Source: a virus
Virus record (IMG/VR): IMGVR_UViG_3300020469_000010
Length of the DNA stretch: 64,000 nucleotides
Direction: 5' to 3' (one strand)
Shown: in pieces, positions 5,355 to 22,702 of the stretch
How the letters are laid out: each line of letters begins with the position of its first letter
Numbering within the stretch: the first letter of the stretch is position 1
The notes under the pieces: generated by a model
Told to the model about the DNA's origin: nothing
Seen by the model: the letters and a program-made list of their open reading frames with translations, nothing else
The model's database searches: none
Position numbers and translations under genes: made by a program

Positions 5355-8300
5355 ATGCCACAACTAACGAATCTAAACACCTTTCCATATTTTGATGATT
5401 TTGATAAAAAATCTAATTATCATAAGGTTCTCTTTAAACCTGGTCAACCGGTTCAAGCTAGAGAACTTACGACAATGCAGTCTATACTGCAGAATCAAAT
5501 TGAGCAGTTTGGCAACCATGTATTTAAAGATGGTTCAGTAGTAATTCCAGGTACGCTTTCTGTTAGATCTAAGCAATATAATATTGAACTTGAGAGAACT
5601 TTTGCTGGAATTGATGTATTTCAATATACAGATGCATTAACAGGTGTAGAGATTGTTGGATCTGAAAGTGGTGTTAGGGGAAGAGTAGAAGTTGTAGATG
5701 GAAATAGGTTATTTGTCGATATATTAACTTCTGGAAATGAATCGGAATTTTCCGAATTTATTGTTGGAGAATCAATTACAACTACAGACACTGTAAATAT
5801 AACCGAATCAAATATATCAAGTTTTCCTGAAGGAGCTGAAATTGGTGTAATTGGAAATGTTTTCAGAGGATGTATTGCAAAGTTAACTAGTGGTGTATTT
5901 TTCCTACGAGGATATTTTGTAGAAGTTGAAGATTCAACAGTAGTTATTAGTTCGGAAGAACCAAATCCAACTTGTTCTATAGGATTTTTAATTAATGAAT
6001 TACTTACTGATTCATTTGATGACGAGTCTTTATATGACAATTCGCAGGGATTTATTAATTATGCTGCGCCAGGTGCAGATAGACTTCAAATTGAAGTAAC
6101 ACTAGTTACATCATATAGAGGTGAATTTGATGATGAATTTCCACAAAATTATGTAGAAATTGCAAAAGTTACTAATGGTACAATATCTTCATCTAAAATT
6201 GAAAATCCATCATATAATATTCTTGGTGATGAATTAGCAAGAAGAACATTTGATGAAAGTGGTCACTATTATGTAAAACCCTTTACTCTTGATGTAAGAG
6301 AATCTTTGAGAGATTTTAAGGGAAATAATGGAATATTTAATGATAGTGAACTTACCCTATTTGGACAAATTCCTAGAGATGATATTGGTATCTATGATGT
6401 TTCTCCAGGAAAGGCATATATTTTTGGATATGAAGTTGACATGTCCTCAAATTCATTATTGGACTTTTCGAAACCAAGAGAAACAAAACAGTTTGAAGAT
6501 CAAGCAATAACATATGTAACTGGTCCTACATTATCTCTCAATAGGTCTTTTGGTGCGCCAGAAGTCGGTGTTTCCACCACATATACACTTTCACTTAGAG
6601 ATGAGAGAGTAGGTGCTACACAAACAAATGCTCCAGGAAAAGAAATTGGACTGGCTAGAGTGTATGATTATGCTCTAGAATCAGGATCTTACGAAACTTC
6701 AAATCTTGATGCAAACATTTGGGATTTAGCACTATTTGATGTAGTTCCATTTACAGATATTGTTGTAAACGAAAGTATTGAATCTGTACAGACTCCAACA
6801 TTTATCGAAGGTAAAGCAAGTGGTGCTGTAGGATTCTTGAGATATGATGTTTCAAATTCTGGAATTATAACTGCGTATAATGTTAGAGGAAACTTTATAA
6901 AAGGTGAAGAATTAGTTTTTGATGGAAATGATTCTGATAGAATTACTATCGCATCTACAACTTATGGAATATCAAATGTAAAATCCATATTTGGTCAGTC
7001 TGGTAGTGGAACATTCTCTGCTGATGTAAGACAATCACCAGAAATTGCTCTTGGACCTTGTAAGATTGATGGATCAGGAGTAGTAACTCAAGCAGGTAGA
7101 GATTTTACAAAAGATTTTATAGTAAATGATCTTGTTTCTTACAGGACTCCTGGAGGTGCTAGACCAACGGTTAACAGGGTAAGTGCCGTAACGGTAGATG
7201 ATATTACTTTAGCAGCAGTAGAGAATGTGACAGGTGTCTCTCTAGGTGCAGTAGCTTCCAATACCGATTCAATTGATATCTTTAAAATTTCAACAAAGAT
7301 TGCAAATACCAATACTGGAGATGATAACTATCTGTTCACTAGATTACCTAAGAAGGTAGTTTCAACTGTTGACACCTCTAATAGTGAACTTTCTTTCCGT
7401 AAGAGATTTGATACTACAGTTACTCCAGATGCTACTGGTGGAAGAATTACAATTCTTCCTTCACAACTGGGATCTACTGAGACATTCTTACCATTTGACG
7501 AAGAAAGATATATTGTAATTAATACTAATGGTCAAACTGAAGCACTAACACAAGATAAGTTTACTATTACTAGTGGAAATAAGGAATTAATCATAAGAGG
7601 TTTATCTGTAACAGGATCTGCAGTACTAATTGCCACATTAAAGACTAATGATGTAGAACCTATTACTAAACTTAGAAATAGATTAGAAGCAATTACAGTA
7701 TCAAAATCTAAACTGCCAGGTTCAGGTATTGGAGCAACAACTTTAAATGATGGACTAGAATATGGTAATTATCCATATGGAACTAGAGTTCAAGATAAAG
7801 ATATTTGTCTGCTTCAACCAGATGTAATGAAACTTCATGGTGTTTTTGAATCATCTACTGAAGGTGAAGCTGAAATCCCAAATCTAATTCTTAGAGATAT
7901 TGACAGTTTTAATGGAAGTGCTGAAGATATACTAATAGGTGAAGAGATTATTGGTTCTGAGTCTGGATGTGTTGCAATAATTTCAGATGTTATAGACAGT
8001 GCAAATGTTGAATTTATTGTAATTAATGATAAAGAATTTATTTTTGATGAGAAAATAAATTGCCAAGAAACTGAGATTACTGCGACTATTGATGCAATTA
8101 CACCCGGTGATAATAATATCACTAACCAATTTACTTTGGTTAGAGGAACTAATAATACAATTTATGATTATTCTAGAATTGTAAGAGATTCTTCTTCTGC
8201 TGAACCAATCAAGAGTCTTAGAATTTTCTACGAGTATGCAAGTCTAGATTCTAATGAGAGTGGATGCTATATGAGTGTTGACTCATATTTCCAGTTTGAC

Positions 8301-11300
8301 TACAAGGATATTGGAAATACAAATGGAATTAGACACTCAGATATTATTGATATTAGACCAAGAGTTGATCAATATATTGTAGAGGAAAATAAGAGATCTC
8401 CATTTGAATTCTTAGGTAGAGATTTCTTTAACGATCAAAACGATAATTTAAAAATTCTAGCTTCTGATGAATCCTTAACTTTCGATTATCAAATTTACTT
8501 ACCAAGAATTGATAAAATTTATCTAAACAAAGATAAAATTTTCCAATTAAGTCGTGGTGTTTCTGCAGAAAATCCAGAAGAACCATCTCTAATTGAAGAT
8601 GCAATTGAAGTTGCTCGTATAGTTTTACCAGCATATCTCTTTAATACTTCAGATGCAAAGTTAAGTCTCTCAACTTACAAACGATATCAAATGAGAGATA
8701 TTGCTGGATTGGAAGATAGAATTAAAAATCTTGAGTATTATACTTCACTATCTTTACTTGAGCAAAGTACTGCTAACTTAGAAATTAAAGATTCTGCAGG
8801 CACCGATAGATTTAAATCTGGTTTCTTTGTAGATAATTTTACAACAACTACAAATCAAATAAAACTTGGTGCTAAGAACAGTATTGATCCTAGAACTAAA
8901 GAATTAAGACCAGCAGCATACACCACACAACTAGATTTACTTTTAGGTTCAACAGAACTAACTGGTGTTGGTGGAGAAAAAAATCTAAATGCAGATCCAA
9001 GATATGTAACTGATTTAATTGGTGAAGATATTAGAAGAAGCACCGTTGATCCCAATGGAAATGCTGGTTCTGATGGTATGGGAATCATAACTCTAGATTA
9101 TGAAGAAATTGAATTAATTTCTCAAGATACTGCTACAAGAGTAGTAAACGCAGCACCATATTTTGTAACTTTCTATAAAGGAACTATTACTCTCAATCCA
9201 TCATCAGATATTTGGGTTGAACAATCTAGAGTTGAAACACAAACTGTTGAAGGTTTGATTGGTGGTTATTCTGTCACTAATATTGAAGCAAAACCCTCAG
9301 ACTTGGATCCTCAGGCAGGATGGTCTCCAATTCTATGGGGTGGATGGAATGAAGAGTGGACTGGTAAGAAAGTTACTAATAACTCAGTTAGAGATAAAGC
9401 TTCATCTATAGATGATGGAGTTAAAGTAACTGCATCTACCACAATAGTTTCACAGACAACTACTAATACAGGAACAGCAACTCAGCAAGGTTTATCAACA
9501 CAGATAGAAACTGTTCCAGGAAATAATATTAATCTTGGTGATAAAATTATTGCAAGTAATGTTTCTTCATTCCTAAGGTCTAGAAATATTGAAGTTCTTG
9601 CTAGAAGATTAAAACCACTTACAAGAATGTACGCATTCTTCTCTGGAATAAATGTAACAAATTACTGTATTCCAAAATTAATTGAAATTGAAATGATCGG
9701 TGGAACCTTTAGAGTTGGAGAAACCGTTGAGAGTACAACAAGAACTCCAGGAATTATTGAAGATAAACCATATATTAAATTCAGAGTAGCACAACCTAGA
9801 CATAGAAATGGTGCATACAATGACCCGATTGATGGATATGGAACAAGTCCATATAATGGAGCAGATTTACCTGAAGATTATTCCGTAAGTTCAAAGTTAT
9901 TGAATGTAGACTTGACTTCTCTTTGTTTACAAGCACAAGGAGATTTTTATGGATATATTAGTCCAGGAATGACTCTGGTTGGAAAATCTAGTGGAGCTAG
10001 AGCAAGAATTTCTAATGTCAGACTAGTATCAGATAATACTGGATCTCTATTCGCATCATTCTATATTCCAAATTCTAATTCTAAAACTGCTCCTAGATTT
10101 AAATCTGGAAATAATACCTTAAAAATTCAAGATAATGCCAACTTGAATGCAATTTCGGGTACTTTAAATTCTGCAACAGAAGGAACATATTTCTCACAAG
10201 GAACAATTGAGCAGGTTCAAGGATCTATCATTTCTACAAGAAATGTCGAAGTTACTAATGCATATACAACACAATCTCAAGCAATTTTTGATGAACAAAC
10301 AACAATTACTGGTGTTGATGTAGATCTTACTGTATCGGTAACTCCACAACCAATTCCAAGACCAATCCCGCAACCGAAACCACAACCCAAACCACAACCA
10401 ACACCTAAACCACAACCACAACCTAGACCCAGACCAACACCAAAACCAAAACCACAACCTAAAGCACTTCCACCAGTACCTAATCCAAAACCAGAGCCAA
10501 GACCGCAACCTTTGGCTCCACAACCAAAACCAGCTATACCACCAAAGGTACAACCAAAACCAAGACCACAACCTAAAGCATCTAAGCCACCAAAACCAAG
10601 ACCAAAACCTAAAGCAACATTCAAACCACCCAAGTCTCGGCAGAAGGATGATTCCAATCCAAGGCCGTTGCCACCAAAAGCAAAGCCAGTAAAGCCAGTA
10701 CCAAATCCAAAACCAAAGGCTGTAGCTAATCCACCTAAGCCAAAACCAAAACCGCACGCTACTCCAAAACCACAACCCAAACCCAATCCCAATCCAAAGC
10801 CCAATCCACCACCACCGGTGGTAGCACCAAAGAAACCACCAACAAATCCCAAGCCAAAGCCCAAGAAACCAAAACCAATCCCCATTCCAAAGCCCAAGCC
10901 TAAGAATCCCAAGCCAAAGCCCAAAAAACCAAAACCAATCCCCATTCCAAAGCCCAGACCGGTAGGTGATAGGCCAGGTGATGAGCCAACACCAAGACCA
11001 CCGGCATTTGTTGAACCACCAGAGGATTATGATGATCCTCTAGCGCAATCCTTCTTTGTTGGAGGAGAAAATTATAAAACTGGAGTATTTGTTACTTCCG
11101 CAAGTCTCTACTTTAAGACTACATCGGATGCAGAATCCTGTTTTGTCCAACTAAGACCAATGGTAAATGGATTACCTTCACATAAAGCGTATCCAATGTC
11201 CAATGTCGTTCTTCAAGGTGCTGATGTTGTAATTTCAGAGGATGCTTCTGTCCCAACAATTGTTACATTCCCATCACCAATTTATTTGGAAGGAAACAAA

Positions 11301-13499
11301 GAACATTGTATTGTAGTTGGATCTAGATCTACTGCTTTCAATCTATGGGTTTCCAGATTAGGTGAGGTTGATGTTTCAAATCTAGATTTGCCAGAATCTG
11401 AGCAAGTTCCGATTACGAAACAAGCAAATCTTGGTTCACTATTTAAATCTCAGAACAGTTATACTTGGACACCAAGTCAATATGAAGATTTGAAGTATTC
11501 TCTCAATAGAGCAGAATTTACTGATCGAGGATCAATTAGTTTCTTTAACCCAGATTTATCTAGAGGAAATGGACAAATTGCTATCTTGAAAAAAGATGCT
11601 CTCGTATCATCTTCTAGACAAATTGTTGTTGGACTTGGAACTACTGCTAATGGATTTGGTACTGAAATTGTACCAGGAAATACCGTTATACAAGATGATA
11701 CTACTGGAACAGGTAACTTTGTAATGGGTCTCGGTATTGCTACCGGAAATCTAACAGTAGTAAATGCTGGACTAGGTTTAACACCATCATCCGGGTTCTT
11801 CGATTATCCAGATGTAACTCTGACTAGGGTAACTGGTAGAGGTGAAAATGCAGTTGCAGATATTCATGTTAATAACGGTGTGGCAGTTGCTGCAACTATT
11901 ACCTTCGGTGGTAATGGATTTAAAGTCGGTGATATTGTAACTGGAATTGTTGGTGAAGGAGTTGGTAGAAATCTACAACTGTCAATTGCTGAGATTCATG
12001 GAATTAATGAACTTGTTATAGATCAAGTTCAAGGTGATTTCGTTGTTGGTACTGGAAAAACACTGCGTTATATCAATTCTTCTGGTGTAACTTCAGAATT
12101 CAGTGCAAATTCTACTGTAACTCTTGATACAACCCCCAGAATAATTAATGACGGTTTACACATAAAAGTAAATCATCTAAATCATGGTATGCATTCTGGA
12201 ACCAATAGAGTAAACATTGTTGATGTTGCTTCTGATATTCCATCTTCTGGTCTAGGAATTGATATTAATGAGACTCAAACAGTAGATCTTGAAGTAGGTG
12301 ATGCAAGTCGTTATTCCACATTTGAAGGTATTGGGATTGGAACAACTAATCCTGGTTACATTAAGATTGATAGTGAAATTATAGGATACACAACTATAAC
12401 TGGAAATGTCATAGGTGGACTAACAAGAGGTGTTGATAACACCTCTGCAACTGGACATGAAAGTGGATCACTAGTTATGAAGTATGAATCTTGTGGAGTT
12501 TCTTTGAGAAGAATTAATAAAATTCATGATCTTCAAGATGCAACAGTTAATGAGGCACTTGGATTAGATCATTATAATATTCGTCTTGATATGAGTGCTG
12601 AAACTGGTGAGGATAGAACTGCTTCAAGTACTTTCCCAGAGTTGTTCTTGAATGAAACAAAATCATTCGGTGGAGTTGGAATTCAAGCATCACAGAACAT
12701 TAGTTATGAAATCATGAAACCAATTATATCTACTATGACTCTCCAGAAAACTAATATTTCTGCTAGAGCAAGAACGGTAAGTTCAAGTAGTATAAGTGGA
12801 AACGAAGTTGCATTCATTGATCAAGGATATGAACAAATTTCCTTGGATAAGGATAATTACTTCGAAACTCCTAGATTGGTTGCATCTAATGTAAATGCTG
12901 ATAATCTTCTTACAAATGTTCCTGGACAAAAGTCCTTTGAAATTGAACTAACACTAGACAGTTATGATAGTAGACTATCACCAATTGTTGACTTAGATAG
13001 GGTCGGTGCAATCTTTGTTTCTAACAGAGTTAATGAAGTAATTAGTGATTATTCTTCTGATAGAAGAACTGCTTCAATTAAGGATGATCCAAATGCGTTC
13101 ATTTATGCAACGAAACCAATTGAATTAGAAATTCCAGCAAATAACATAAGAGTTCTTGCTGCTGCTTATATTAATAATTTCTCTGACATTCGTGCATTCT
13201 ATGCAATTACCAATAATCCAGATGAAGAGTTAATTTATTATCCCTTCCCAGGATTTAGTAATTTACTAGAAAGTGGTCAGGTTATTGATTCTAATAAGAA
13301 TGATGGAACTTCAGACTCCTTTGTTTCACCTGTTGATAATAAAGGATTTGAATCAGTATCCTTGGCATTCAAAGATTATGAATTCACCATTGAAAACTTA
13401 CCATCATTTAAGTTCTTCAGTGTGAAGATGGTGGCAACATCTAGAACTCAGTGTTACCCACCAAGAATCCGTGATTTCCGAGCAGTCGCATTTGCATAA
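5355..13499 (+). CDS. Very large VrlC-like (DUF4815-type) virion structural protein with a Pro/Lys-rich insertion
   Basis: N-terminal PYFDDF...LFKPG..VQARELT..QSILQNQ; APGADR; RFKSGFFVDNF; DPLAQSF; C-terminal PPRIRDFRAVAFA. Confidence 0.8.
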   Translation: MPQLTNLNTFPYFDDFDKKSNYHKVLFKPGQPVQARELTTMQSILQNQIEQFGNHVFKDGSVVIPGTLSVRSKQYNIELERTFAGIDVFQYTDALTGVEIVGSESGVRGRVEVVDGNRLFVDILTSGNESEFSEFIVGESITTTDTVNITESNISSFPEGAEIGVIGNVFRGCIAKLTSGVFFLRGYFVEVEDSTVVISSEEPNPTCSIGFLINELLTDSFDDESLYDNSQGFINYAAPGADRLQIEVTLVTSYRGEFDDEFPQNYVEIAKVTNGTISSSKIENPSYNILGDELARRTFDESGHYYVKPFTLDVRESLRDFKGNNGIFNDSELTLFGQIPRDDIGIYDVSPGKAYIFGYEVDMSSNSLLDFSKPRETKQFEDQAITYVTGPTLSLNRSFGAPEVGVSTTYTLSLRDERVGATQTNAPGKEIGLARVYDYALESGSYETSNLDANIWDLALFDVVPFTDIVVNESIESVQTPTFIEGKASGAVGFLRYDVSNSGIITAYNVRGNFIKGEELVFDGNDSDRITIASTTYGISNVKSIFGQSGSGTFSADVRQSPEIALGPCKIDGSGVVTQAGRDFTKDFIVNDLVSYRTPGGARPTVNRVSAVTVDDITLAAVENVTGVSLGAVASNTDSIDIFKISTKIANTNTGDDNYLFTRLPKKVVSTVDTSNSELSFRKRFDTTVTPDATGGRITILPSQLGSTETFLPFDEERYIVINTNGQTEALTQDKFTITSGNKELIIRGLSVTGSAVLIATLKTNDVEPITKLRNRLEAITVSKSKLPGSGIGATTLNDGLEYGNYPYGTRVQDKDICLLQPDVMKLHGVFESSTEGEAEIPNLILRDIDSFNGSAEDILIGEEIIGSESGCVAIISDVIDSANVEFIVINDKEFIFDEKINCQETEITATIDAITPGDNNITNQFTLVRGTNNTIYDYSRIVRDSSSAEPIKSLRIFYEYASLDSNESGCYMSVDSYFQFDYKDIGNTNGIRHSDIIDIRPRVDQYIVEENKRSPFEFLGRDFFNDQNDNLKILASDESLTFDYQIYLPRIDKIYLNKDKIFQLSRGVSAENPEEPSLIEDAIEVARIVLPAYLFNTSDAKLSLSTYKRYQMRDIAGLEDRIKNLEYYTSLSLLEQSTANLEIKDSAGTDRFKSGFFVDNFTTTTNQIKLGAKNSIDPRTKELRPAAYTTQLDLLLGSTELTGVGGEKNLNADPRYVTDLIGEDIRRSTVDPNGNAGSDGMGIITLDYEEIELISQDTATRVVNAAPYFVTFYKGTITLNPSSDIWVEQSRVETQTVEGLIGGYSVTNIEAKPSDLDPQAGWSPILWGGWNEEWTGKKVTNNSVRDKASSIDDGVKVTASTTIVSQTTTNTGTATQQGLSTQIETVPGNNINLGDKIIASNVSSFLRSRNIEVLARRLKPLTRMYAFFSGINVTNYCIPKLIEIEMIGGTFRVGETVESTTRTPGIIEDKPYIKFRVAQPRHRNGAYNDPIDGYGTSPYNGADLPEDYSVSSKLLNVDLTSLCLQAQGDFYGYISPGMTLVGKSSGARARISNVRLVSDNTGSLFASFYIPNSNSKTAPRFKSGNNTLKIQDNANLNAISGTLNSATEGTYFSQGTIEQVQGSIISTRNVEVTNAYTTQSQAIFDEQTTITGVDVDLTVSVTPQPIPRPIPQPKPQPKPQPTPKPQPQPRPRPTPKPKPQPKALPPVPNPKPEPRPQPLAPQPKPAIPPKVQPKPRPQPKASKPPKPRPKPKATFKPPKSRQKDDSNPRPLPPKAKPVKPVPNPKPKAVANPPKPKPKPHATPKPQPKPNPNPKPNPPPPVVAPKKPPTNPKPKPKKPKPIPIPKPKPKNPKPKPKKPKPIPIPKPRPVGDRPGDEPTPRPPAFVEPPEDYDDPLAQSFFVGGENYKTGVFVTSASLYFKTTSDAESCFVQLRPMVNGLPSHKAYPMSNVVLQGADVVISEDASVPTIVTFPSPIYLEGNKEHCIVVGSRSTAFNLWVSRLGEVDVSNLDLPESEQVPITKQANLGSLFKSQNSYTWTPSQYEDLKYSLNRAEFTDRGSISFFNPDLSRGNGQIAILKKDALVSSSRQIVVGLGTTANGFGTEIVPGNTVIQDDTTGTGNFVMGLGIATGNLTVVNAGLGLTPSSGFFDYPDVTLTRVTGRGENAVADIHVNNGVAVAATITFGGNGFKVGDIVTGIVGEGVGRNLQLSIAEIHGINELVIDQVQGDFVVGTGKTLRYINSSGVTSEFSANSTVTLDTTPRIINDGLHIKVNHLNHGMHSGTNRVNIVDVASDIPSSGLGIDINETQTVDLEVGDASRYSTFEGIGIGTTNPGYIKIDSEIIGYTTITGNVIGGLTRGVDNTSATGHESGSLVMKYESCGVSLRRINKIHDLQDATVNEALGLDHYNIRLDMSAETGEDRTASSTFPELFLNETKSFGGVGIQASQNISYEIMKPIISTMTLQKTNISARARTVSSSSISGNEVAFIDQGYEQISLDKDNYFETPRLVASNVNADNLLTNVPGQKSFEIELTLDSYDSRLSPIVDLDRVGAIFVSNRVNEVISDYSSDRRTASIKDDPNAFIYATKPIELEIPANNIRVLAAAYINNFSDIRAFYAITNNPDEELIYYPFPGFSNLLESGQVIDSNKNDGTSDSFVSPVDNKGFESVSLAFKDYEFTIENLPSFKFFSVKMVATSRTQCYPPRIRDFRAVAFA
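10845..10956 (+). repeat. Near-perfect 60-bp tandem repeat (NPKPKPKKPKPIPIPKP twice) in the Pro-rich tract
   Basis: aatcccaagccaaagcccaa(g/a)aaaccaaaaccaatccccattccaaagccca occurs at 10845 and 10905. Confidence 0.9.
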
Positions 13500-17938: not shown

Positions 17939-20900
17939 ATGGGTATTTCTACCATTCGTCTTAAAAGATCTTTTTCTCAAGGATCTCAACCAACAATTGA
18001 GCAACTGACTGATGGTGAATTAGCCATTAATCATTTTGATGGTACTGTCTTTGTAAAGCAAGACACTCAAGGTGTTGGTATTAATACTAGAGTCGTACAA
18101 GTTGGTGCAGGTAAAAGTATTGGACGTACTTTCTTTGTTATTCAACAAGGAGATGATAATAATTTAGGATTAACGCAAGCAGATGGATTGGCATCCATTA
18201 AGAGAGCATCTCAACTTGCACAACCAGGTGATACTATTAAAGTTTCTGCTGGAATATATGTTGAAGATAATCCAATTATTCTTAGAGATAATGTATCTGT
18301 AGAAGGATTTGAATTAAGAAACTGCTATGTTGCACCAAATAATCCAGATCAAGATTTATTTCATATCAATAATGCATGTCACTTAACTGACTTGGCATTT
18401 ATTGGTAAAGGTGCAGATATTGGTGGTGGTTCTAAAGGTGTTCCTGCTGGTGGATCTGAACCAGGATTCCTCGGAGGACCAGTAGACTCTGGAGTTGCTG
18501 TTGTAGCATTTGTTCCACTTAAAGGTGTTTCGGGAGACAGATATTTTGATGCCGCAAGACTGATTCGACAGAATGCGGATTATATTGCTGGTGAAGCAGT
18601 TGGATTTTTAACTAGTGGTTTTAGTGGTATTGCTGGTTCTCATAGAGCACAAGATGCTGCAAGACTTATTGATCTAAATGCAGAATTTATTGCAGCAGAG
18701 GCAGTAGGATTTATCACTAGTGTAAATTATGTTGGTGGTGCATTCTCAATGTCATTCGGTACAGCAACAGACTGTAAGGATGACGTTCATGATGTTTTAG
18801 AGGTAGTAGCACATGATTTAAGAGCAGGATATAGGGCAGGAGTTCAGGCAAATAAGAAAACTGTAGGTGCTGCACAGTCATATTTTGTTGGTGGAGCACT
18901 ATCTCACATTCTAGGTGCTGGAGTTTCTGAAGCAACGATTGCTGCAATGGATCGTGCTGCTGGTATTGCAACCTTTGTTATCAATAACAAACCATATGGA
19001 TTTGAAACTACTGGTGCTGGTGTTGCTGTAAGTGCATTTGATTATACTGCAAATACTGGTGTTGCTACAGTTACAACCACAGTCGGTCATGGATTGAGCA
19101 CTACAGACCATGTTGAATTTGCTGGATTAGCATTTACATGTGCAACAGAACATGCTGGTGTTACTACAACAATTTTCCCAGATGGTTTTGCTCCTTCTGG
19201 TCATATTTTCAAAATTGATGCTAGTGGAACATTTAATGAGAGTCAGTTTGTTATTAATGCTGGTATCTCTACTATTCAAACATTCTATACAGCAAGTTCT
19301 GGAACAGCAAAAACTGTCACACAATACAGTCCATTTGAGCAACAATTTGATACTGGAGCAGCTGCAGGAACACCTCTTCGTGGTGAAAATGTAGTTGGTG
19401 GTGTAAAGGAAACAGTTACAAATGCAACTTATGACCCTGCTACTGGTTTAACAGTATTAACTATAGGTTCACATAAACATACCGTTGGTAATAGTATCAG
19501 AATTCCTCTAGAAGCATTAGTCTTTACTTGTTCTCAAGATGGTGGTGTTTCTGAGCATAAGTATCCTCGTGCTACAGACCCTGCTAATGGAAATGATCTT
19601 CAAATACTTTCAACAACTGGTACAACTATAACAGTTAATACTGGTGCTTCTGGTCCATCCGATCAATATGCACACACATTTGTTCGTGCAGAGAAAAGGA
19701 TTATTGTTGGTGGTGGACTTTGCCTCAATGTTATCAAAGATATTAAGAATCTAGTCGGCATTATAACCAGTGCTATTGGTGCAGGCAATACAGGTAGTCT
19801 TCCTGGAATTACAACTGGTGTAAGACTAGAGCAGAATAAGTGTCGTAGGGATGTTACTAAAATTCTTAAGGCTGTTTGTTATGATATCACCCGTGGTGGT
19901 AACACCAAAGTCATTGGTGCTGCAAAGTCATATTTCGATGATCAAGGAAATAGACTTTCCGCACTTTTGGTAGATCCTGACGAATTTGAACAATCTGTTA
20001 TTGCAGTAGAATATACTAAAGATTTGTGCAGAAGAATTGTTAATAATGTAAGGGATGGTTCTTATACAATTGGAACAGCCTTCCATGTTTCTGATGCATT
20101 GTATTCTCCAACATCAGGTATCATGACTGTTACCACTCAAGTCGGTAATGGATTAACTGCTGGAAATACTATTAAACTTTCTGGATTAGGATTTAGTTGT
20201 GGTGCTCATAATAATGAAATTTCTATAACCGATTTCCAGTATGACAGACAATCTGGTTTTAGTACTATCTTTGTAAGTTCAGATCACGGATTAAGTTCTG
20301 GTGATGAATTTGAACTTCGTAATATTAAAATGAATTGTGGTGATTCTGGTACTGGTCCAGTTGTTAATGTAACAGCAGCAGCATATGATGAAGCACTAGG
20401 TGATATTGTTATAACAACTTCTGCAGCACATGGAGCACACATAGGAAAAACAATACAAGTTAAGAATCTTGAATTTAGTTGTGCTGCAGAACATGCTGGT
20501 GTTACTACAACAATTTTCCCAGATGGAACTGGAACAAGTAACTTTATTCAGGGTTATGGTAAAGATGTATTTTTAGTTACTGCAACACCATCAACAACTC
20601 AATTTAAAATTAATGTAGGTATATCCACAATTGCTCATAGTTATGTTTCTGGTGGTACTGCACAAGCAGGTATAACTACATCAATTTATCCAGATGGTGT
20701 ACAAGGTGGTGGTGATGCAATCTTTGATGCATATGTTGGTACTGGTGGAACAGTTATCTTTACAAATGTAGGTATCTCTACAATTGAACATACCTATGAT
20801 TCTGGAGGTCAAGTAAGGATAGGTGTTACTACATCTGTTTTCCCAGATGGAACTTTTGGTGATTTCTTTGACATTCAGAGTCGTCTTTCTGACAGTCAAT

Positions 20901-22702
20901 TTACAATTAATGTTGGTATGTCAACTATTGCTCATGTATATAAGAGTGGAGGAATAGTTCAAAAGACCAGATCCTTTAGACCAGACATAGGTCAAATCAG
21001 AGATATAAGTATTCAAGCAGATCCAGATACTGGAAATAATAATACTGTTGGTAACTGTAAGAATGTTATTTCTGCTGTAAATACTGCAGTTGGAATTTGC
21101 ACTGCAATCATTGAAAATGGATTCCAAGCACTTCAAGAACCAGTATACTTAGAAGTATCAACCGCAGCATATACTGCTAATAATGGAATACTTACATTAA
21201 ATACAACAACTAATCATAATCTCTCTAACGGTGATAAAATTAAATTAAGAAATAATTCTATTATCTTTACTTGCGATTCTGATGGTGGAAATACTCAAAT
21301 TGGATATCCAGATAAAACCAGTCCAATTTTTGATAGGTTTATTCCAGTTACAGTTACTGGTGCTACCTCACTGACTGTTAATACAGGAGACGCTGGTACT
21401 GCATCGACACTAACTCATAGTTTTGTTTCTATTGCTGGAACACAAACAATTAATTATGGTGGTGCTGGAATTTCTACTAGATTCCCAGGTAATAATGGTG
21501 CTGGATCTGATTTTGAAAATGATCCATCATTCTCTCCTGGAACTGACGGACCTGTTCTAAAAGGTCCATATATCAGAAACTGTACTAACTTTATCGAAAA
21601 CAGCATCGGTATGAGAATCAATGGATTTGATTCTGATCCTGGTGATAAAGATGAATTGGGTGTACAGGGTTCAATGAGTGTTGACTCATATACTCAATAT
21701 AATCAAGGTGGTATTGGTGTATCAATTACAAACGGTGCATATGCACAGTTGGTGTCTATCTTCACCATCTGCTGTAATGAAGCAATTGTAACCTTAAGTG
21801 GTGGTCAGTGTGACCTTACAAACTCCAACTCCTCATTCGGTGAGTTTGGTCTAGTTTCTAAAGGTGTTGGTGATGAGAACTCCCGTTCCAACTATAGACA
21901 AACTGCTGAAGTTGTCAAAGCAGGTGATCCTGGTAGAACAAATGCTCAAGGTCCATATGATGTTGGTTCCAGAAGAGTTACTTTATCTGGTGTCGGTACA
22001 CAAAGACCTTATGATGGTCAGACAGTATTCTTCGATGAACTCTTCTTCTCTGTAGAAAAAGTTAAAATTACCAACGAAGGTTCTGGATATGAAGGTGCTG
22101 TACCAGGAGTTACTTTCTCCGATCCAACTGGACCTCAAGGAATTACTGCACAAGGAATTCCAATTGTTGAAGATGGTAAAGTTGTCAGTTTCTTAGTTGC
22201 CAACTCTGGAACTCAATATCAAAAAGATTCTTTCCCATCAATTACTATTACACCACCTGAAGGTGATGGTGTACAGGCAACTGCAGAAGTTGAAAGGATG
22301 CAACCACTATTCTTTAAGGTTGCTTCTGCAACACTCCCACATAGTGGAATCTCAACCGTCACAATGAGTCAAGGACTAAATAATTCATTGAGTGGTGGTG
22401 AAACTGCGTTCATGACTCGTCAGAGTCTGCAAATCACATCTTCTCACTCTTTTGAATATGTTGGTGCGGGTAATACTATCCTAACAGCAAGACCTTCAGT
22501 TGGAGGTATCATTATTCAGGATAATGAAGTTGTTCAGGAAGATGGTGGTCTTGTAGTTTACACAAGCACGGACCAAGCAGGTAACTTCAGAATTGGTGAT
22601 GGTATTCAAATTGACCAGGCAACTGGAACGATCTCAGGTCGTGTTTATGTCAAATCATTGTTCAACAGCGTTACACCATTTATTCTAGCACTCGGAGGTT
22701 AA
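17939..22702 (+). CDS. Large fibre/spike-like virion protein: fibre-attachment N-terminus and a split pectin-lyase-like beta-helix with nested helical and beta-repeat insertions
   Basis: IRLKRS...P....L.DGELAIN..DG N-terminus; beta-helix start (ASIKRA...PGDTIKVSAG.Y.E); beta-helix resumes at GPYIRNCTNF...SMSVDSYTQYNQGGIG. Confidence 0.7.
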   Translation: MGISTIRLKRSFSQGSQPTIEQLTDGELAINHFDGTVFVKQDTQGVGINTRVVQVGAGKSIGRTFFVIQQGDDNNLGLTQADGLASIKRASQLAQPGDTIKVSAGIYVEDNPIILRDNVSVEGFELRNCYVAPNNPDQDLFHINNACHLTDLAFIGKGADIGGGSKGVPAGGSEPGFLGGPVDSGVAVVAFVPLKGVSGDRYFDAARLIRQNADYIAGEAVGFLTSGFSGIAGSHRAQDAARLIDLNAEFIAAEAVGFITSVNYVGGAFSMSFGTATDCKDDVHDVLEVVAHDLRAGYRAGVQANKKTVGAAQSYFVGGALSHILGAGVSEATIAAMDRAAGIATFVINNKPYGFETTGAGVAVSAFDYTANTGVATVTTTVGHGLSTTDHVEFAGLAFTCATEHAGVTTTIFPDGFAPSGHIFKIDASGTFNESQFVINAGISTIQTFYTASSGTAKTVTQYSPFEQQFDTGAAAGTPLRGENVVGGVKETVTNATYDPATGLTVLTIGSHKHTVGNSIRIPLEALVFTCSQDGGVSEHKYPRATDPANGNDLQILSTTGTTITVNTGASGPSDQYAHTFVRAEKRIIVGGGLCLNVIKDIKNLVGIITSAIGAGNTGSLPGITTGVRLEQNKCRRDVTKILKAVCYDITRGGNTKVIGAAKSYFDDQGNRLSALLVDPDEFEQSVIAVEYTKDLCRRIVNNVRDGSYTIGTAFHVSDALYSPTSGIMTVTTQVGNGLTAGNTIKLSGLGFSCGAHNNEISITDFQYDRQSGFSTIFVSSDHGLSSGDEFELRNIKMNCGDSGTGPVVNVTAAAYDEALGDIVITTSAAHGAHIGKTIQVKNLEFSCAAEHAGVTTTIFPDGTGTSNFIQGYGKDVFLVTATPSTTQFKINVGISTIAHSYVSGGTAQAGITTSIYPDGVQGGGDAIFDAYVGTGGTVIFTNVGISTIEHTYDSGGQVRIGVTTSVFPDGTFGDFFDIQSRLSDSQFTINVGMSTIAHVYKSGGIVQKTRSFRPDIGQIRDISIQADPDTGNNNTVGNCKNVISAVNTAVGICTAIIENGFQALQEPVYLEVSTAAYTANNGILTLNTTTNHNLSNGDKIKLRNNSIIFTCDSDGGNTQIGYPDKTSPIFDRFIPVTVTGATSLTVNTGDAGTASTLTHSFVSIAGTQTINYGGAGISTRFPGNNGAGSDFENDPSFSPGTDGPVLKGPYIRNCTNFIENSIGMRINGFDSDPGDKDELGVQGSMSVDSYTQYNQGGIGVSITNGAYAQLVSIFTICCNEAIVTLSGGQCDLTNSNSSFGEFGLVSKGVGDENSRSNYRQTAEVVKAGDPGRTNAQGPYDVGSRRVTLSGVGTQRPYDGQTVFFDELFFSVEKVKITNEGSGYEGAVPGVTFSDPTGPQGITAQGIPIVEDGKVVSFLVANSGTQYQKDSFPSITITPPEGDGVQATAEVERMQPLFFKVASATLPHSGISTVTMSQGLNNSLSGGETAFMTRQSLQITSSHSFEYVGAGNTILTARPSVGGIIIQDNEVVQEDGGLVVYTSTDQAGNFRIGDGIQIDQATGTISGRVYVKSLFNSVTPFILALGG
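19146..20526 (+). repeat. Identical 40-bp direct repeat pair (19146-19185 and 20487-20526)
   Basis: cagaacatgctggtgttactacaacaattttcccagatgg occurs twice and encodes EHAGVTTTIFPDG. Confidence 0.9.

What the first reader, a model, noticed from the sequence alone, without database searches (positions are those of the whole stretch)
18539..21122. Phycobiliprotein-like helical domains, with the bilin-attachment Cys, inside a phage fibre-like virion protein
Seen: the 1587-aa protein has two sets of helices. B-like: DAARLIRQNADYIAGEAV (segment from 18539) and DAARLIDLNAEFIAAEAV (from 18644). E-like: DCKDDVHDVLEVVAHDLRAG (Cys279, 18773) and KCRRDVTKILKAVCYDITRGG (Cys635, 19841). G-like: GVSEATIAAMDRA and QSVIAVEYTKDL. 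H-like: LCLNVIKDIKNLV (Cys595, 19721) and NCKNVISAVNTAV (Cys1040, 21056). Recalled phycobiliprotein sequences match in the same order and register: ApcB RAA..ISANAA.IVKEAV; CpcA [21 protein letters not shown], whose C-x-R-D is the alpha-84 bilin site (9 of 21 positions identical to the second E-like helix); ApcB GVP...TVQAIQA; and CpcB DCSAL.SE, the beta-153 site. In domain 1 the EAV-to-Cys spacing is 22 aa versus about 24 in ApcB, and both contain GG. Inference: a globin/phycobiliprotein-fold module is displayed on the virion. It might carry a bilin (light sensing, photoprotection, light-dependent adsorption) or be a purely structural relative whose Cys residues form disulfides. I know of no description of this, but cannot check the literature.
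Basis: partly seen in the sequence, partly recalled or inferred. Interest (0 to 1): 0.88.

Follow-up and report, generated by a model that had tools for sequence, protein, structure and literature searches.

The report
Phycobiliprotein-type globin modules in phage fibres
A virion fibre protein of a marine cyanophage holds two domains that are true relatives of the bilin-carrying antenna proteins of cyanobacteria. The same module, with its pigment-attachment motif kept almost without exception, is repeated up to 34 times in giant proteins of phages that also make bilins, so it is a candidate for what phage-made bilins attach to.

Summary
ORF 17939-22702 (1587 aa) is the orthologue of a virion protein of Synechococcus phage S-SCSM1 that was detected by mass spectrometry. 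It contains two internally duplicated helical modules, each interrupted by beta-barrel inserts.

The module is a family: 1281 copies in 258 proteins, in tandem arrays of up to 34.
- Profile-profile comparison with real phycobiliproteins (PBPs) gives 93.6% probability (P 2e-7; shuffles score far lower).
- Pfam PF00502 passes its cut-off on one giant homologue.
- The window's own model is poor (pLDDT 59), but its helices also match PBPs best.

The C-x-R-D bilin-attachment motif is the most conserved feature (Cys 97%, Asp 98%), and most units have only this one Cys. Among 50,697 phage genomes, only cyanophages have the module. Uncultured phages of about 350 kb that lack psbA and hli carry it together with an adjacent heme oxygenase and bilin reductase pair. 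Their cultured relatives have neither.

Bilin binding is inferred (about 0.55), not shown. I found no prior description.

The parts
17939..22702 (+). ORF of the 1587-aa virion fibre/baseplate-associated protein (P0001)
   Evidence: ORF list and translation. It is 61% identical to S-SCSM1 SSCSM1_26, annotated 'long tail fiber protein (virion protein)'. PHROG tail-fibre and virion structural families match.
17939..18523 (+). N-terminal part (aa 1-195), probably the first half of a split beta-helix
   Evidence: Inferred from sequence pattern. A homologue, P0134, has weak pectate-lyase/DUF1565 hits at the equivalent N-terminus. Not modelled here.
18539..18616 (+). Lone B-like helix (aa 201-226), possibly the B helix of module 2
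Evidence: Matches positions 1-26 of the module HMM, E 4e-8.
18644..18994 (+). Module 1, helices B, E, F' and G (aa 236-352)
18773..18784 (+). C-K-D-D motif of module 1 (Cys279), the Arg-to-Asp subclass of C-x-R-D
   Evidence: Aligned on Cys84-x-Arg86-Asp87 of PBPs. The +2 position is Asp in 194 of the copies that have the Cys, against Arg in 801.
18995..19708 (+). Two beta-barrel inserts in the G-H loop of module 1 (aa 353-590)
19715..19810 (+). H helix of module 1 (aa 593-624) with invariant Cys595
   Evidence: H-helix HMM E 1.6e-16. Cys is present in 319 of 319 aligned copies. It is helical in AF2, but pLDDT is below 50, so its docking is not shown.
19826..20050 (+). Module 2, helices E, F' and G (aa 630-704)
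   Evidence: HMM E 1.6e-32. hhalign against PBPs gives 88-91% and against uninterrupted units 99.8%.
19841..19852 (+). C-R-R-D motif of module 2 (Cys635), the full C-x-R-D bilin-attachment signature
   Evidence: Aligned on the PBP Cys84 motif. Across the family Cys is kept in 97%, Arg in 74% and Asp in 98% of copies.
20051..21028 (+). Beta-domain inserts of module 2 (aa 705-1030), with repeated F-[TS]-C and G-[VI]-T-T-[ST]-[IV]-[FY]-P-D-G motifs
   Evidence: Read directly from the sequence. PHROG tail-fibre families cover the region. Not modelled.
21029..21127 (+). H helix of module 2 (aa 1031-1063) with invariant Cys1040
   Evidence: HMM E 6.5e-17. Cys is present in 243 of 243 aligned copies.
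21128..22702 (+). C-terminal beta domain and second half of the putative beta-helix (aa 1064-1587)
   Evidence: phrog_3442 and phrog_17885 (tail fibre) match aa 961-1586. Not studied further.

Best explanation
The two helical modules belong to the phycobiliprotein/BBAG clade of bilin-binding globins. They have the globin core (helices B, E, F', G, H) but lack the N-terminal X-Y hairpin that pairs alpha and beta subunits of phycobiliproteins.

Phages use this module as a bead-like unit of virion fibre and baseplate proteins. It occurs either in long tandem arrays or, as here, with beta-barrel receptor-type domains inserted in the G-H loop and perhaps the B-E loop.

Shown: the homology, the fold, the conservation of the motif, the distribution among phages, and the co-occurrence with bilin synthesis genes.

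Inferred: in the infected cell, where host or phage enzymes supply bilin, the Cys of the C-x-R-D motif forms a thioether with a bilin. Cys635 is the surest candidate. Cys279, in a C-K-D-D variant, is less sure. Attachment would be self-catalysed, as in BBAGs and ApcE, or aided by a lyase. The virion would then carry pigment. What the pigment does is open: light sensing for adsorption, photoprotection or fold stabilisation.

My odds are about 0.93 for the homology and fold, and about 0.55 for bilin attachment to at least part of the family.
For: Homology and fold:
- hhalign gives 93.6% probability, P 2e-7, far above all shuffles. The window's own modules give 88-91%.
- PF00502 is the top Pfam hit on giant homologues: P0149 at E 7e-7 and 29.7 bits (cut-off 22.2), and P0134 at E 5e-4.
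- 27 of 57 two-unit fragments hit PF00502. The next most frequent family is hit by 4.
- A profile search of PDB sequences returns phycocyanins as 4 of its 6 hits.
- The AF2 model of two units, built without templates or PBP sequences, has pLDDT 88.7.
- Foldseek and the ESM Atlas agree.
- The helices of the window model match PBPs best.

Bilin site:
- C-x-R-D aligns on Cys84-Arg86-Asp87. Cys is kept in 97% and Asp in 98% of 1281 copies that are only about 30% identical to one another.
- All 1037 distinct copies with the Cys keep the Asp. Only 15 of the 32 without the Cys keep it.
- 72% of uninterrupted units have this Cys as their only Cys, and no second conserved Cys column exists.
- The literature names CXRD as the attachment hallmark and shows that BBAG-1 and BBAG-3 attach bilin without a lyase (PMC10151467). 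Asp87 protonates the chromophore (PMC7780113).

Bilin supply:
- All 339 and all 174 phage records with the module are cyanophages.
- S-SCSM1 has CpeT and a bilin reductase.
- Three module-bearing genomes of 70-100% completeness, lacking psbA and hli, have an adjacent heme oxygenase and bilin reductase pair.
- In the reverse test, all 5 reductase-bearing contigs that are at least 30% complete have the module, against 3 of 25 smaller fragments.
- Cultured relatives have neither the module nor the reductase.
Against: - No chromophore has been observed. Nothing here measures binding.
- The window protein alone gives no PF00502 or PDB sequence hit.
- Its AF2 model is poor (pLDDT 59, H helix below 50).
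- Module 1 has C-K-D-D, so it lacks the Arg that pairs with a bilin propionate in PBPs.
- P-SSM2 is known for bilin synthesis genes (my own knowledge), yet it has no module.
- The phage lyase CpeT is T-type. In hosts it serves the beta-153/155 site, not Cys84 (PMC2327270, PMC10452541).
- The co-occurrence with heme oxygenase and reductase rests on few lineages, so it is not phylogenetically independent.
- In those genomes the synthesis genes lie 80-235 kb from the module genes, not next to them.
- Other invariant polar residues (N247, D293, N305, Y315, N350) have no known PBP counterpart. They could mean a different ligand or a purely structural network.
Confidence: 0.55

Rival explanations
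1. Structural relic. The module descends from a bilin-binding globin but now serves only as a rigid, insertion-tolerant spacer bead of fibres. It carries no chromophore. C-x-R-D and the other invariant polar residues are kept for folding, helix capping or contacts between units.
For: - The module forms tandem arrays with a regular period of 140-165 aa, like spacer repeats.
- It hosts large beta inserts.
- Several invariant polar residues have no PBP counterpart.
- 18% of copies, including window module 1, replace the Arg by Asp.
- No pigmented cyanophage virion turned up in the papers I searched.
- P-SSM2 has no module, though it is known for bilin genes (my own knowledge).
Against: - A motif freed from its ligand should decay. 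Here Cys and Asp are the two best-kept positions in more than 1000 copies that are about 30% identical, across very different phage lineages.
- A lone, near-invariant Cys has no obvious structural role.
- The rival does not explain the restriction to phages with access to bilins, nor the co-occurrence with phage bilin synthesis.
Confidence: 0.3
2. Another use of the conserved site. The pocket binds a different ligand (biliverdin or heme non-covalently, or a metal), or the Cys acts in redox chemistry or cross-linking of fibres after lysis.
For: - BBAG-2 and photoglobins bind biliverdin without C-x-R-D, so ligand choice varies within this clade (PMC10151467).
- Heme oxygenase alone gives biliverdin.
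- Insert-bearing modules have extra invariant Cys residues.
Against: - No His is among the conserved positions, so a heme-type proximal ligand is lacking.
- The conserved triad is exactly the covalent-bilin signature.
- A bilin reductase accompanies the heme oxygenase in the phage genomes.
- Most units have a single Cys, so a disulfide within the domain is excluded for them.
Confidence: 0.1
3. Chance or convergent resemblance. On this view the module is a generic helical bundle unrelated to phycobiliproteins.
For: - There are no single-sequence hits.
- Sequence identity to PBPs is only 12-20%.
- Helical models often reach a middling Z (note).
Against: - Three independent methods converge on the same family in the same register.
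- Shuffle controls score far lower.
- PBPs fill the eight top ranks of 48,161 chains.
Confidence: 0.03

Closest known systems
Light-harvesting phycobiliproteins (Pfam PF00502: CpcA/B, ApcA/B, CpeA/B)
   Same: - C-x-R-D lies at the start of helix E, in register with Cys84-Arg86-Asp87.
- Similar spacing between helix B and the Cys.
- Insertions sit in the loops that also vary in PBPs: G-H (the beta-155 loop) and perhaps B-E (the ApcE loop).
   Different: - No X-Y hairpin, so no alpha-beta pairing or ring assembly is expected.
- Only 12-20% identity.
- Repeated in tandem within one chain, or nested with beta barrels.
- Part of a virion structural protein, not of an antenna.
- Chromophore not shown.
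BBAGs, bilin biosynthesis-associated globins (Rockwell, Martin and Lagarias 2023, PMC10151467)
   Same: - PBP paralogues found outside light harvesting.
- BBAG-1 and BBAG-3 carry C-x-R-D and attach bilins without a lyase.
- They are defined by association with heme oxygenase and bilin reductase genes, which the module-bearing jumbo phages also encode.
   Different: - BBAGs are single small cellular proteins that sit next to the synthesis genes.
- The phage modules are repeats inside giant structural proteins, 80-235 kb from the synthesis genes.
ApcE (core-membrane linker) bilin-binding domain
   Same: - A PBP-type domain embedded in a large multidomain chain, with a big loop insertion.
- It attaches its bilin autocatalytically (PMC2327270).
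   Different: - ApcE has one PBP domain followed by linker repeats and is a cellular antenna protein.
- Its attachment Cys is at a different position (own knowledge).
Phage hemO-pcyX / pebS / pcyA / cpeT auxiliary genes
   Same: They occur in the same genomes, namely S-SCSM1 and the phages of about 350 kb. Together with the module they would form a complete system of pigment supply and acceptor.
   Different: These are enzymes, not relatives of the module. Their purpose in phages is described as still enigmatic (PMC11480375). No phage-encoded acceptor has been named.

Membership tests
Phycobiliprotein superfamily (PF00502, globin-like clan) | Globin-type helical core superposable on solved phycobiliproteins | tested here: met
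   [not shown]
Phycobiliprotein superfamily (PF00502, globin-like clan) | Match to the curated PF00502 profile above its gathering score | tested here: inconclusive
   The window protein and its fragments give no hit. Homologue P0149 scores 29.7 bits against a cut-off of 22.2, summed over repeats. P0134 scores 20.6 bits. 27 of 57 two-unit fragments hit weakly. hhalign gives 88-94%.
Phycobiliprotein superfamily (PF00502, globin-like clan) | C-x-R-D chromophore motif at the start of helix E | tested here: met
   Aligned in register by hhalign and HMMER. Window module 2 has C-R-R-D. Module 1 has the variant C-K-D-D.
Canonical light-harvesting phycobiliprotein subunit | N-terminal X-Y helix pair that mediates alpha-beta heterodimers | tested here: not met
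   Structural alignments start at PBP residues 33-52, after X-Y. The unit begins directly with the B-like helix.
Canonical light-harvesting phycobiliprotein subunit | Covalently bound bilin | not testable with these tools
   Needs spectroscopy or mass spectrometry.
BBAG (bilin biosynthesis-associated globin) | Encoded together with heme oxygenase and a ferredoxin-dependent bilin reductase | tested here: inconclusive
   Found in the same genome but not adjacent in G016, G033, G023, G050 and G051. S-SCSM1 has the reductase and CpeT but no heme oxygenase. The window's own genome is not held.
BBAG (bilin biosynthesis-associated globin) | Placement within the BBAG lineages in a phylogeny | not tested
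Heme globins and globin-coupled sensors | Conserved proximal His for heme iron | tested here: not met
   [not shown]
T4-type tail fibre or baseplate wedge (gp7-like) proteins | Virion location and structural-gene neighbourhood | tested here: met
   The orthologue is marked as a virion protein in S-SCSM1, whose virion proteome was determined by mass spectrometry (PMC9602691). The neighbours are neck, sheath, tube and portal genes. Which virion part it forms is not known.

The most novel reading that the evidence does not exclude
The fibres and baseplate proteins of many cyanomyoviruses, and of a clade of uncultured jumbo phages of about 350 kb, are biliproteins. Bilins are attached to tandem C-x-R-D globin modules and so become part of the virion. 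The bilins would be made by the host or by the phage's own hemO plus pcyX, pebS or pcyA genes.

This would give the phage bilin-synthesis genes a phage-encoded target. It would also put a photoreceptor on the particle, which would explain light-dependent adsorption that does not need host photosynthesis.

The few phenotypes on record fit. S-PM2, P-HM1 and P-HM2 need light to adsorb (PMC6628666), and all three have the module. In P-HM1 only a single tblastn match was seen; S-PM2 and P-HM2 were hit by the module profile. P-SSM2 adsorbs in the dark and has no module.
Probability: 0.25. Interest if true: 0.97.

Novelty: new variant of a known kind. Interest (0 to 1): 0.88.

Why it matters
Two open questions become testable.

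1. Why do phages carry heme oxygenase, bilin reductases and a bilin lyase, including phages that seem not to infect phycobilisome-bearing hosts? A 2024 study calls this still enigmatic and can only speculate on an acceptor (PMC11480375). Here the same genomes encode giant virion proteins built from dozens of phycobiliprotein-type modules, each with the attachment motif.

2. What makes adsorption of some cyanophages depend on light without depending on host photosynthesis? Light-sensitive tail fibres have been proposed, but no photoreceptor is known (PMC6628666).

Even if no bilin binds, the result has value. It shows that the phycobiliprotein fold was recruited as a repeat unit of virion fibres. 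It gives a name to hundreds of 'hypothetical' or 'tail fibre-like' giant proteins. It also adds a large, diverse branch to the bilin-binding globin family, whose origin is under debate (PMC10151467).

Tried and rejected
- Single-sequence searches of the whole protein and of the helical fragments against Pfam and PDB sequences gave no phycobiliprotein hit. PF00502 found nothing in the 154-kb record of a close relative. At that stage I held the likeness to be chance. The family profile overturned that view.
- No whole genome is held for the window, so its own bilin genes could not be checked. The CpeT and reductase loci of S-SCSM1 have no counterpart inside the 64-kb window.
- AF2 of window aa 232-628 gave pLDDT 59 and pTM 0.38, with the H helix below 50. 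The docking of the H helix, and so the complete module 1, is not shown for the window protein itself.
- I tried to align the H-helix parts of uninterrupted units across the 240-aa insert, but they misaligned. They were left out of alignment A2.
- Complex prediction on the three presumed pieces of module 2 (aa 196-232, 628-710, 1030-1066) returned no verdict. It counts neither for nor against the nested-domain idea.
- The search for related loci with alignment A1 failed because no stretch was conserved enough. A degenerate DNA pattern for the motif was used instead.
- The contigs behind L138-L142 are not held for whole-record searches, so their hosts and accessory genes are unknown.
- Gasper et al. 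2017 on phage CpeT is not held. I make no claim from it.
- I rejected a disulfide between the E-helix Cys and the H-helix Cys as the general explanation, because most units have only one Cys.
- Literature searches for a phycobiliprotein-like or globin-like domain in phage virion proteins found nothing. This is a limited library, so it is no proof of absence.
Full report
**What is there.** The finding lies in ORF 17939-22702 (+), which encodes a 1587-aa protein.
- The window has about 35% G+C and one coding strand.
- Its closest isolate is Synechococcus phage S-SCSM1, a T4-like cyanomyovirus. The orthologue SSCSM1_26 is 61% identical at protein level. It is annotated 'long tail fiber protein (virion protein)' and sits among neck, sheath, tube and portal genes.
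- The virion proteome of S-SCSM1 was determined by mass spectrometry (PMC9602691).
- PHROG tail-fibre and virion structural families cover the protein.

**The observation.** All eight motifs are present within a few bases of the stated positions. The two sets of helices are a true internal duplication (E 3e-9 and 2e-4). Alone, the protein and its helical pieces match no phycobiliprotein in Pfam or among PDB sequences. At that point I judged the likeness probably chance.

**The module is a large family.**
- An exhaustive search with aa 196-353 found 151 representative proteins, most of them giant and with up to 13 matched stretches each.
- With an HMM built from the hits I counted 1281 copies in 258 proteins.
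- In many giants the copies follow each other with a period of 140-165 aa, up to 34 per protein.
- The family consensus resembles the Cys84 region of phycobiliproteins (PBPs) more than the window's own copies do. Cys is kept in 97%, the Arg two residues on in 74% and the Asp three residues on in 98% of copies.

**Homology to phycobiliproteins.** I fetched real cpcBA loci from cyanobacterial genomes with a degenerate DNA pattern and built an alignment of 198 distinct CpcA/CpcB sequences.
- hhalign of 250 uninterrupted units against it gives probability 93.6%, P 2e-7, over 91 columns. The first helix falls on helix B, C-x-R-D on Cys84-x-Arg86-Asp87, and the third long helix on helix G.
- Reversed and shuffled controls score 10-24 against 47.8.
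- Orthologue alignments of the window's own two modules give 88-91% in the same register, and 99.8-99.9% to the uninterrupted units.
- The curated Pfam model PF00502 is the best Pfam hit on giant homologues. P0149 scores 29.7 bits against a cut-off of 22.2. P0134 scores 20.6 bits.
- PF00502 is hit by 27 of 57 two-unit fragments. The next family is hit by 4.
- A profile search of PDB sequences returns phycocyanins and phycoerythrocyanin as 4 of its 6 hits.

**Fold.** AF2 was run without templates on an alignment of 57 phage two-unit fragments only. The model has pLDDT 88.7 and pTM 0.64. Each unit has a kinked first helix, a long second helix that starts at the Cys, a short helix, a third long helix, a loop and a fourth long helix.
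- Foldseek lists almost only PBPs (probability 1.0, E 0.03-0.2). The nearest ESM Atlas cluster is a phycocyanin alpha cluster.
- The alignments begin after the X-Y hairpin of PBPs, so the phage module is the globin core alone.
- Its inserts resemble the ubiquitin E1 FCCH barrel and a phage endosialidase barrel.

I take the fold homology as established for the family and very likely for the window protein.

**The attachment motif.**
- Among 1069 distinct copies, all 1037 with the Cys also have the Asp. Of the 32 without the Cys, only 15 keep it.
- 72% of uninterrupted units have exactly one Cys, and no second Cys column exceeds 6%. An intradomain disulfide therefore cannot explain the conservation.
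- In insert-bearing modules such as the window's, a further invariant Cys stands at the start of the last helix. Its partner is unknown, and I see no support for equating it with the beta-153 site.
- Window module 2 has the full C-R-R-D. Module 1 has C-K-D-D, a subclass found in about 18% of copies.
- The literature names CXRD as the chromophore-binding motif of PBPs and of BBAG-1 and BBAG-3. These are PBP paralogues of non-photosynthetic bacteria that attach bilins without a lyase (PMC10151467). ApcE also self-attaches (PMC2327270).

**Distribution.**
- In 50,697 phage records the window's module hits 174 records and a giant's two-unit fragment hits 339. Every one is a Synechococcus or Prochlorococcus phage or a marine single-cell virus.
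- A profile search finds 9 matches in S-PM2, 4 in P-HM2, 2 in Syn9, 2 in S-SCSM1 and none in P-SSM2.
- In the window only this ORF has the module.
- Many are fragments of genomes of about 350 kb. Their capsid protein is 70-74% identical to those of Rak2/GAP32/Phosso-like jumbo phages of Proteobacteria.
- Cultured members of that group lack the module.

**Link to bilin synthesis.**
- S-SCSM1 and a 154-kb relative encode CpeT. S-SCSM1 also encodes a ferredoxin-dependent bilin reductase.
- The three most complete module-bearing genomes without psbA and hli are G016 (364 kb, 100%), G033 (275 kb, 77%) and G023 (134 kb, 70%). Each carries an adjacent heme oxygenase and bilin reductase pair.
- Each also has 9, 5 and 25 module matches in ORFs of up to 4187 aa.
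- In the reverse test I picked viral contigs only by likeness to the G016 reductase. All 5 that are at least 30% complete have the module, against 3 of 25 smaller fragments. By my arithmetic the hypergeometric P is about 4e-4. This is what one expects if every genome of the clade has both and detection depends on fragment size.
- Cultured relatives have neither the module nor the reductase.
- A 2024 paper calls the purpose of the phage hemO-FDBR cassette 'still enigmatic' and mentions phytochromes or BBAGs only as possibilities (PMC11480375).

**Caveats.**
- The co-occurrence rests on few lineages.
- The genes are far apart in the genomes.
- P-SSM2, known for bilin genes (my own knowledge), lacks the module.
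- CpeT is a T-type lyase, which does not serve Cys84 sites in hosts.

**Interpretation.** The modules are PBP/BBAG-type globins used as building blocks of virion proteins (odds about 0.93). I think it more likely than not (about 0.55) that at least the C-x-R-D copies bind a bilin covalently. Three things point that way: the signature is under strong selection, it is coupled as a unit, and it occurs only where bilins are on hand.

Function beyond binding is speculative. Light-dependent adsorption that is independent of host photosynthesis is on record for S-PM2 and for P-HM1 and P-HM2, while P-SSM2 adsorbs in the dark (PMC6628666). This agrees with presence and absence of the module. It is only four phages, and P-HM1 rests on a single tblastn row, so it is a lead, not evidence.

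**Novelty.** Public names of the homologues are 'tail fibre-like', 'structural protein' or 'hypothetical'. Four literature searches found no description of a PBP-like domain in a phage virion protein.

Noticed in passing
[not shown]
   Followed up: partly
window 19715-19810 and 21029-21127: Insert-bearing modules have an invariant Cys in a G-G-C-x-N-V motif at the start of the last helix (319 of 319 and 243 of 243 copies). Uninterrupted units lack it. Its partner or role is unknown.
   Followed up: partly
L140:5001-17552 (P0159) and G023:C1:7954-18090: A second type of giant protein has units with a period of only 108-115 aa, so apparently without the last helix and linker. G023 has 25 matches in one 4187-aa ORF. 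It is unclear how the fold closes in these units.
   Followed up: no
G016:C1:287030-288224; G033:C1:178492-179702; G023:C1:130750-131857: Adjacent heme oxygenase and ferredoxin-dependent bilin reductase genes occur in uncultured phages that have no psbA and no hli. The reductase has 393 relatives in IMG/VR. The host of these phages is unknown.
   Followed up: partly
G018:C1:171043-171916: The psbA match of this 186-kb cyanophage contig is in three pieces with in-frame stops between them. This could be an intron or a broken gene.
   Followed up: no
window 5355-13499: A 2714-aa ORF upstream corresponds to the VrlC-like virion protein of S-SCSM1. Earlier notes of this scan mention a Pro/Lys tract in it.
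   Followed up: no
LN828717.1 43949-53965 and about 156.8-160.8 kb; GU075905.1 46318-59682 and about 83 kb: The model phages S-PM2 (ORFs of 3340 and 3792 aa) and P-HM2 (gp7 of 4458 aa and a 3682-aa ORF) carry several modules each. They are ready experimental systems.
   Followed up: partly
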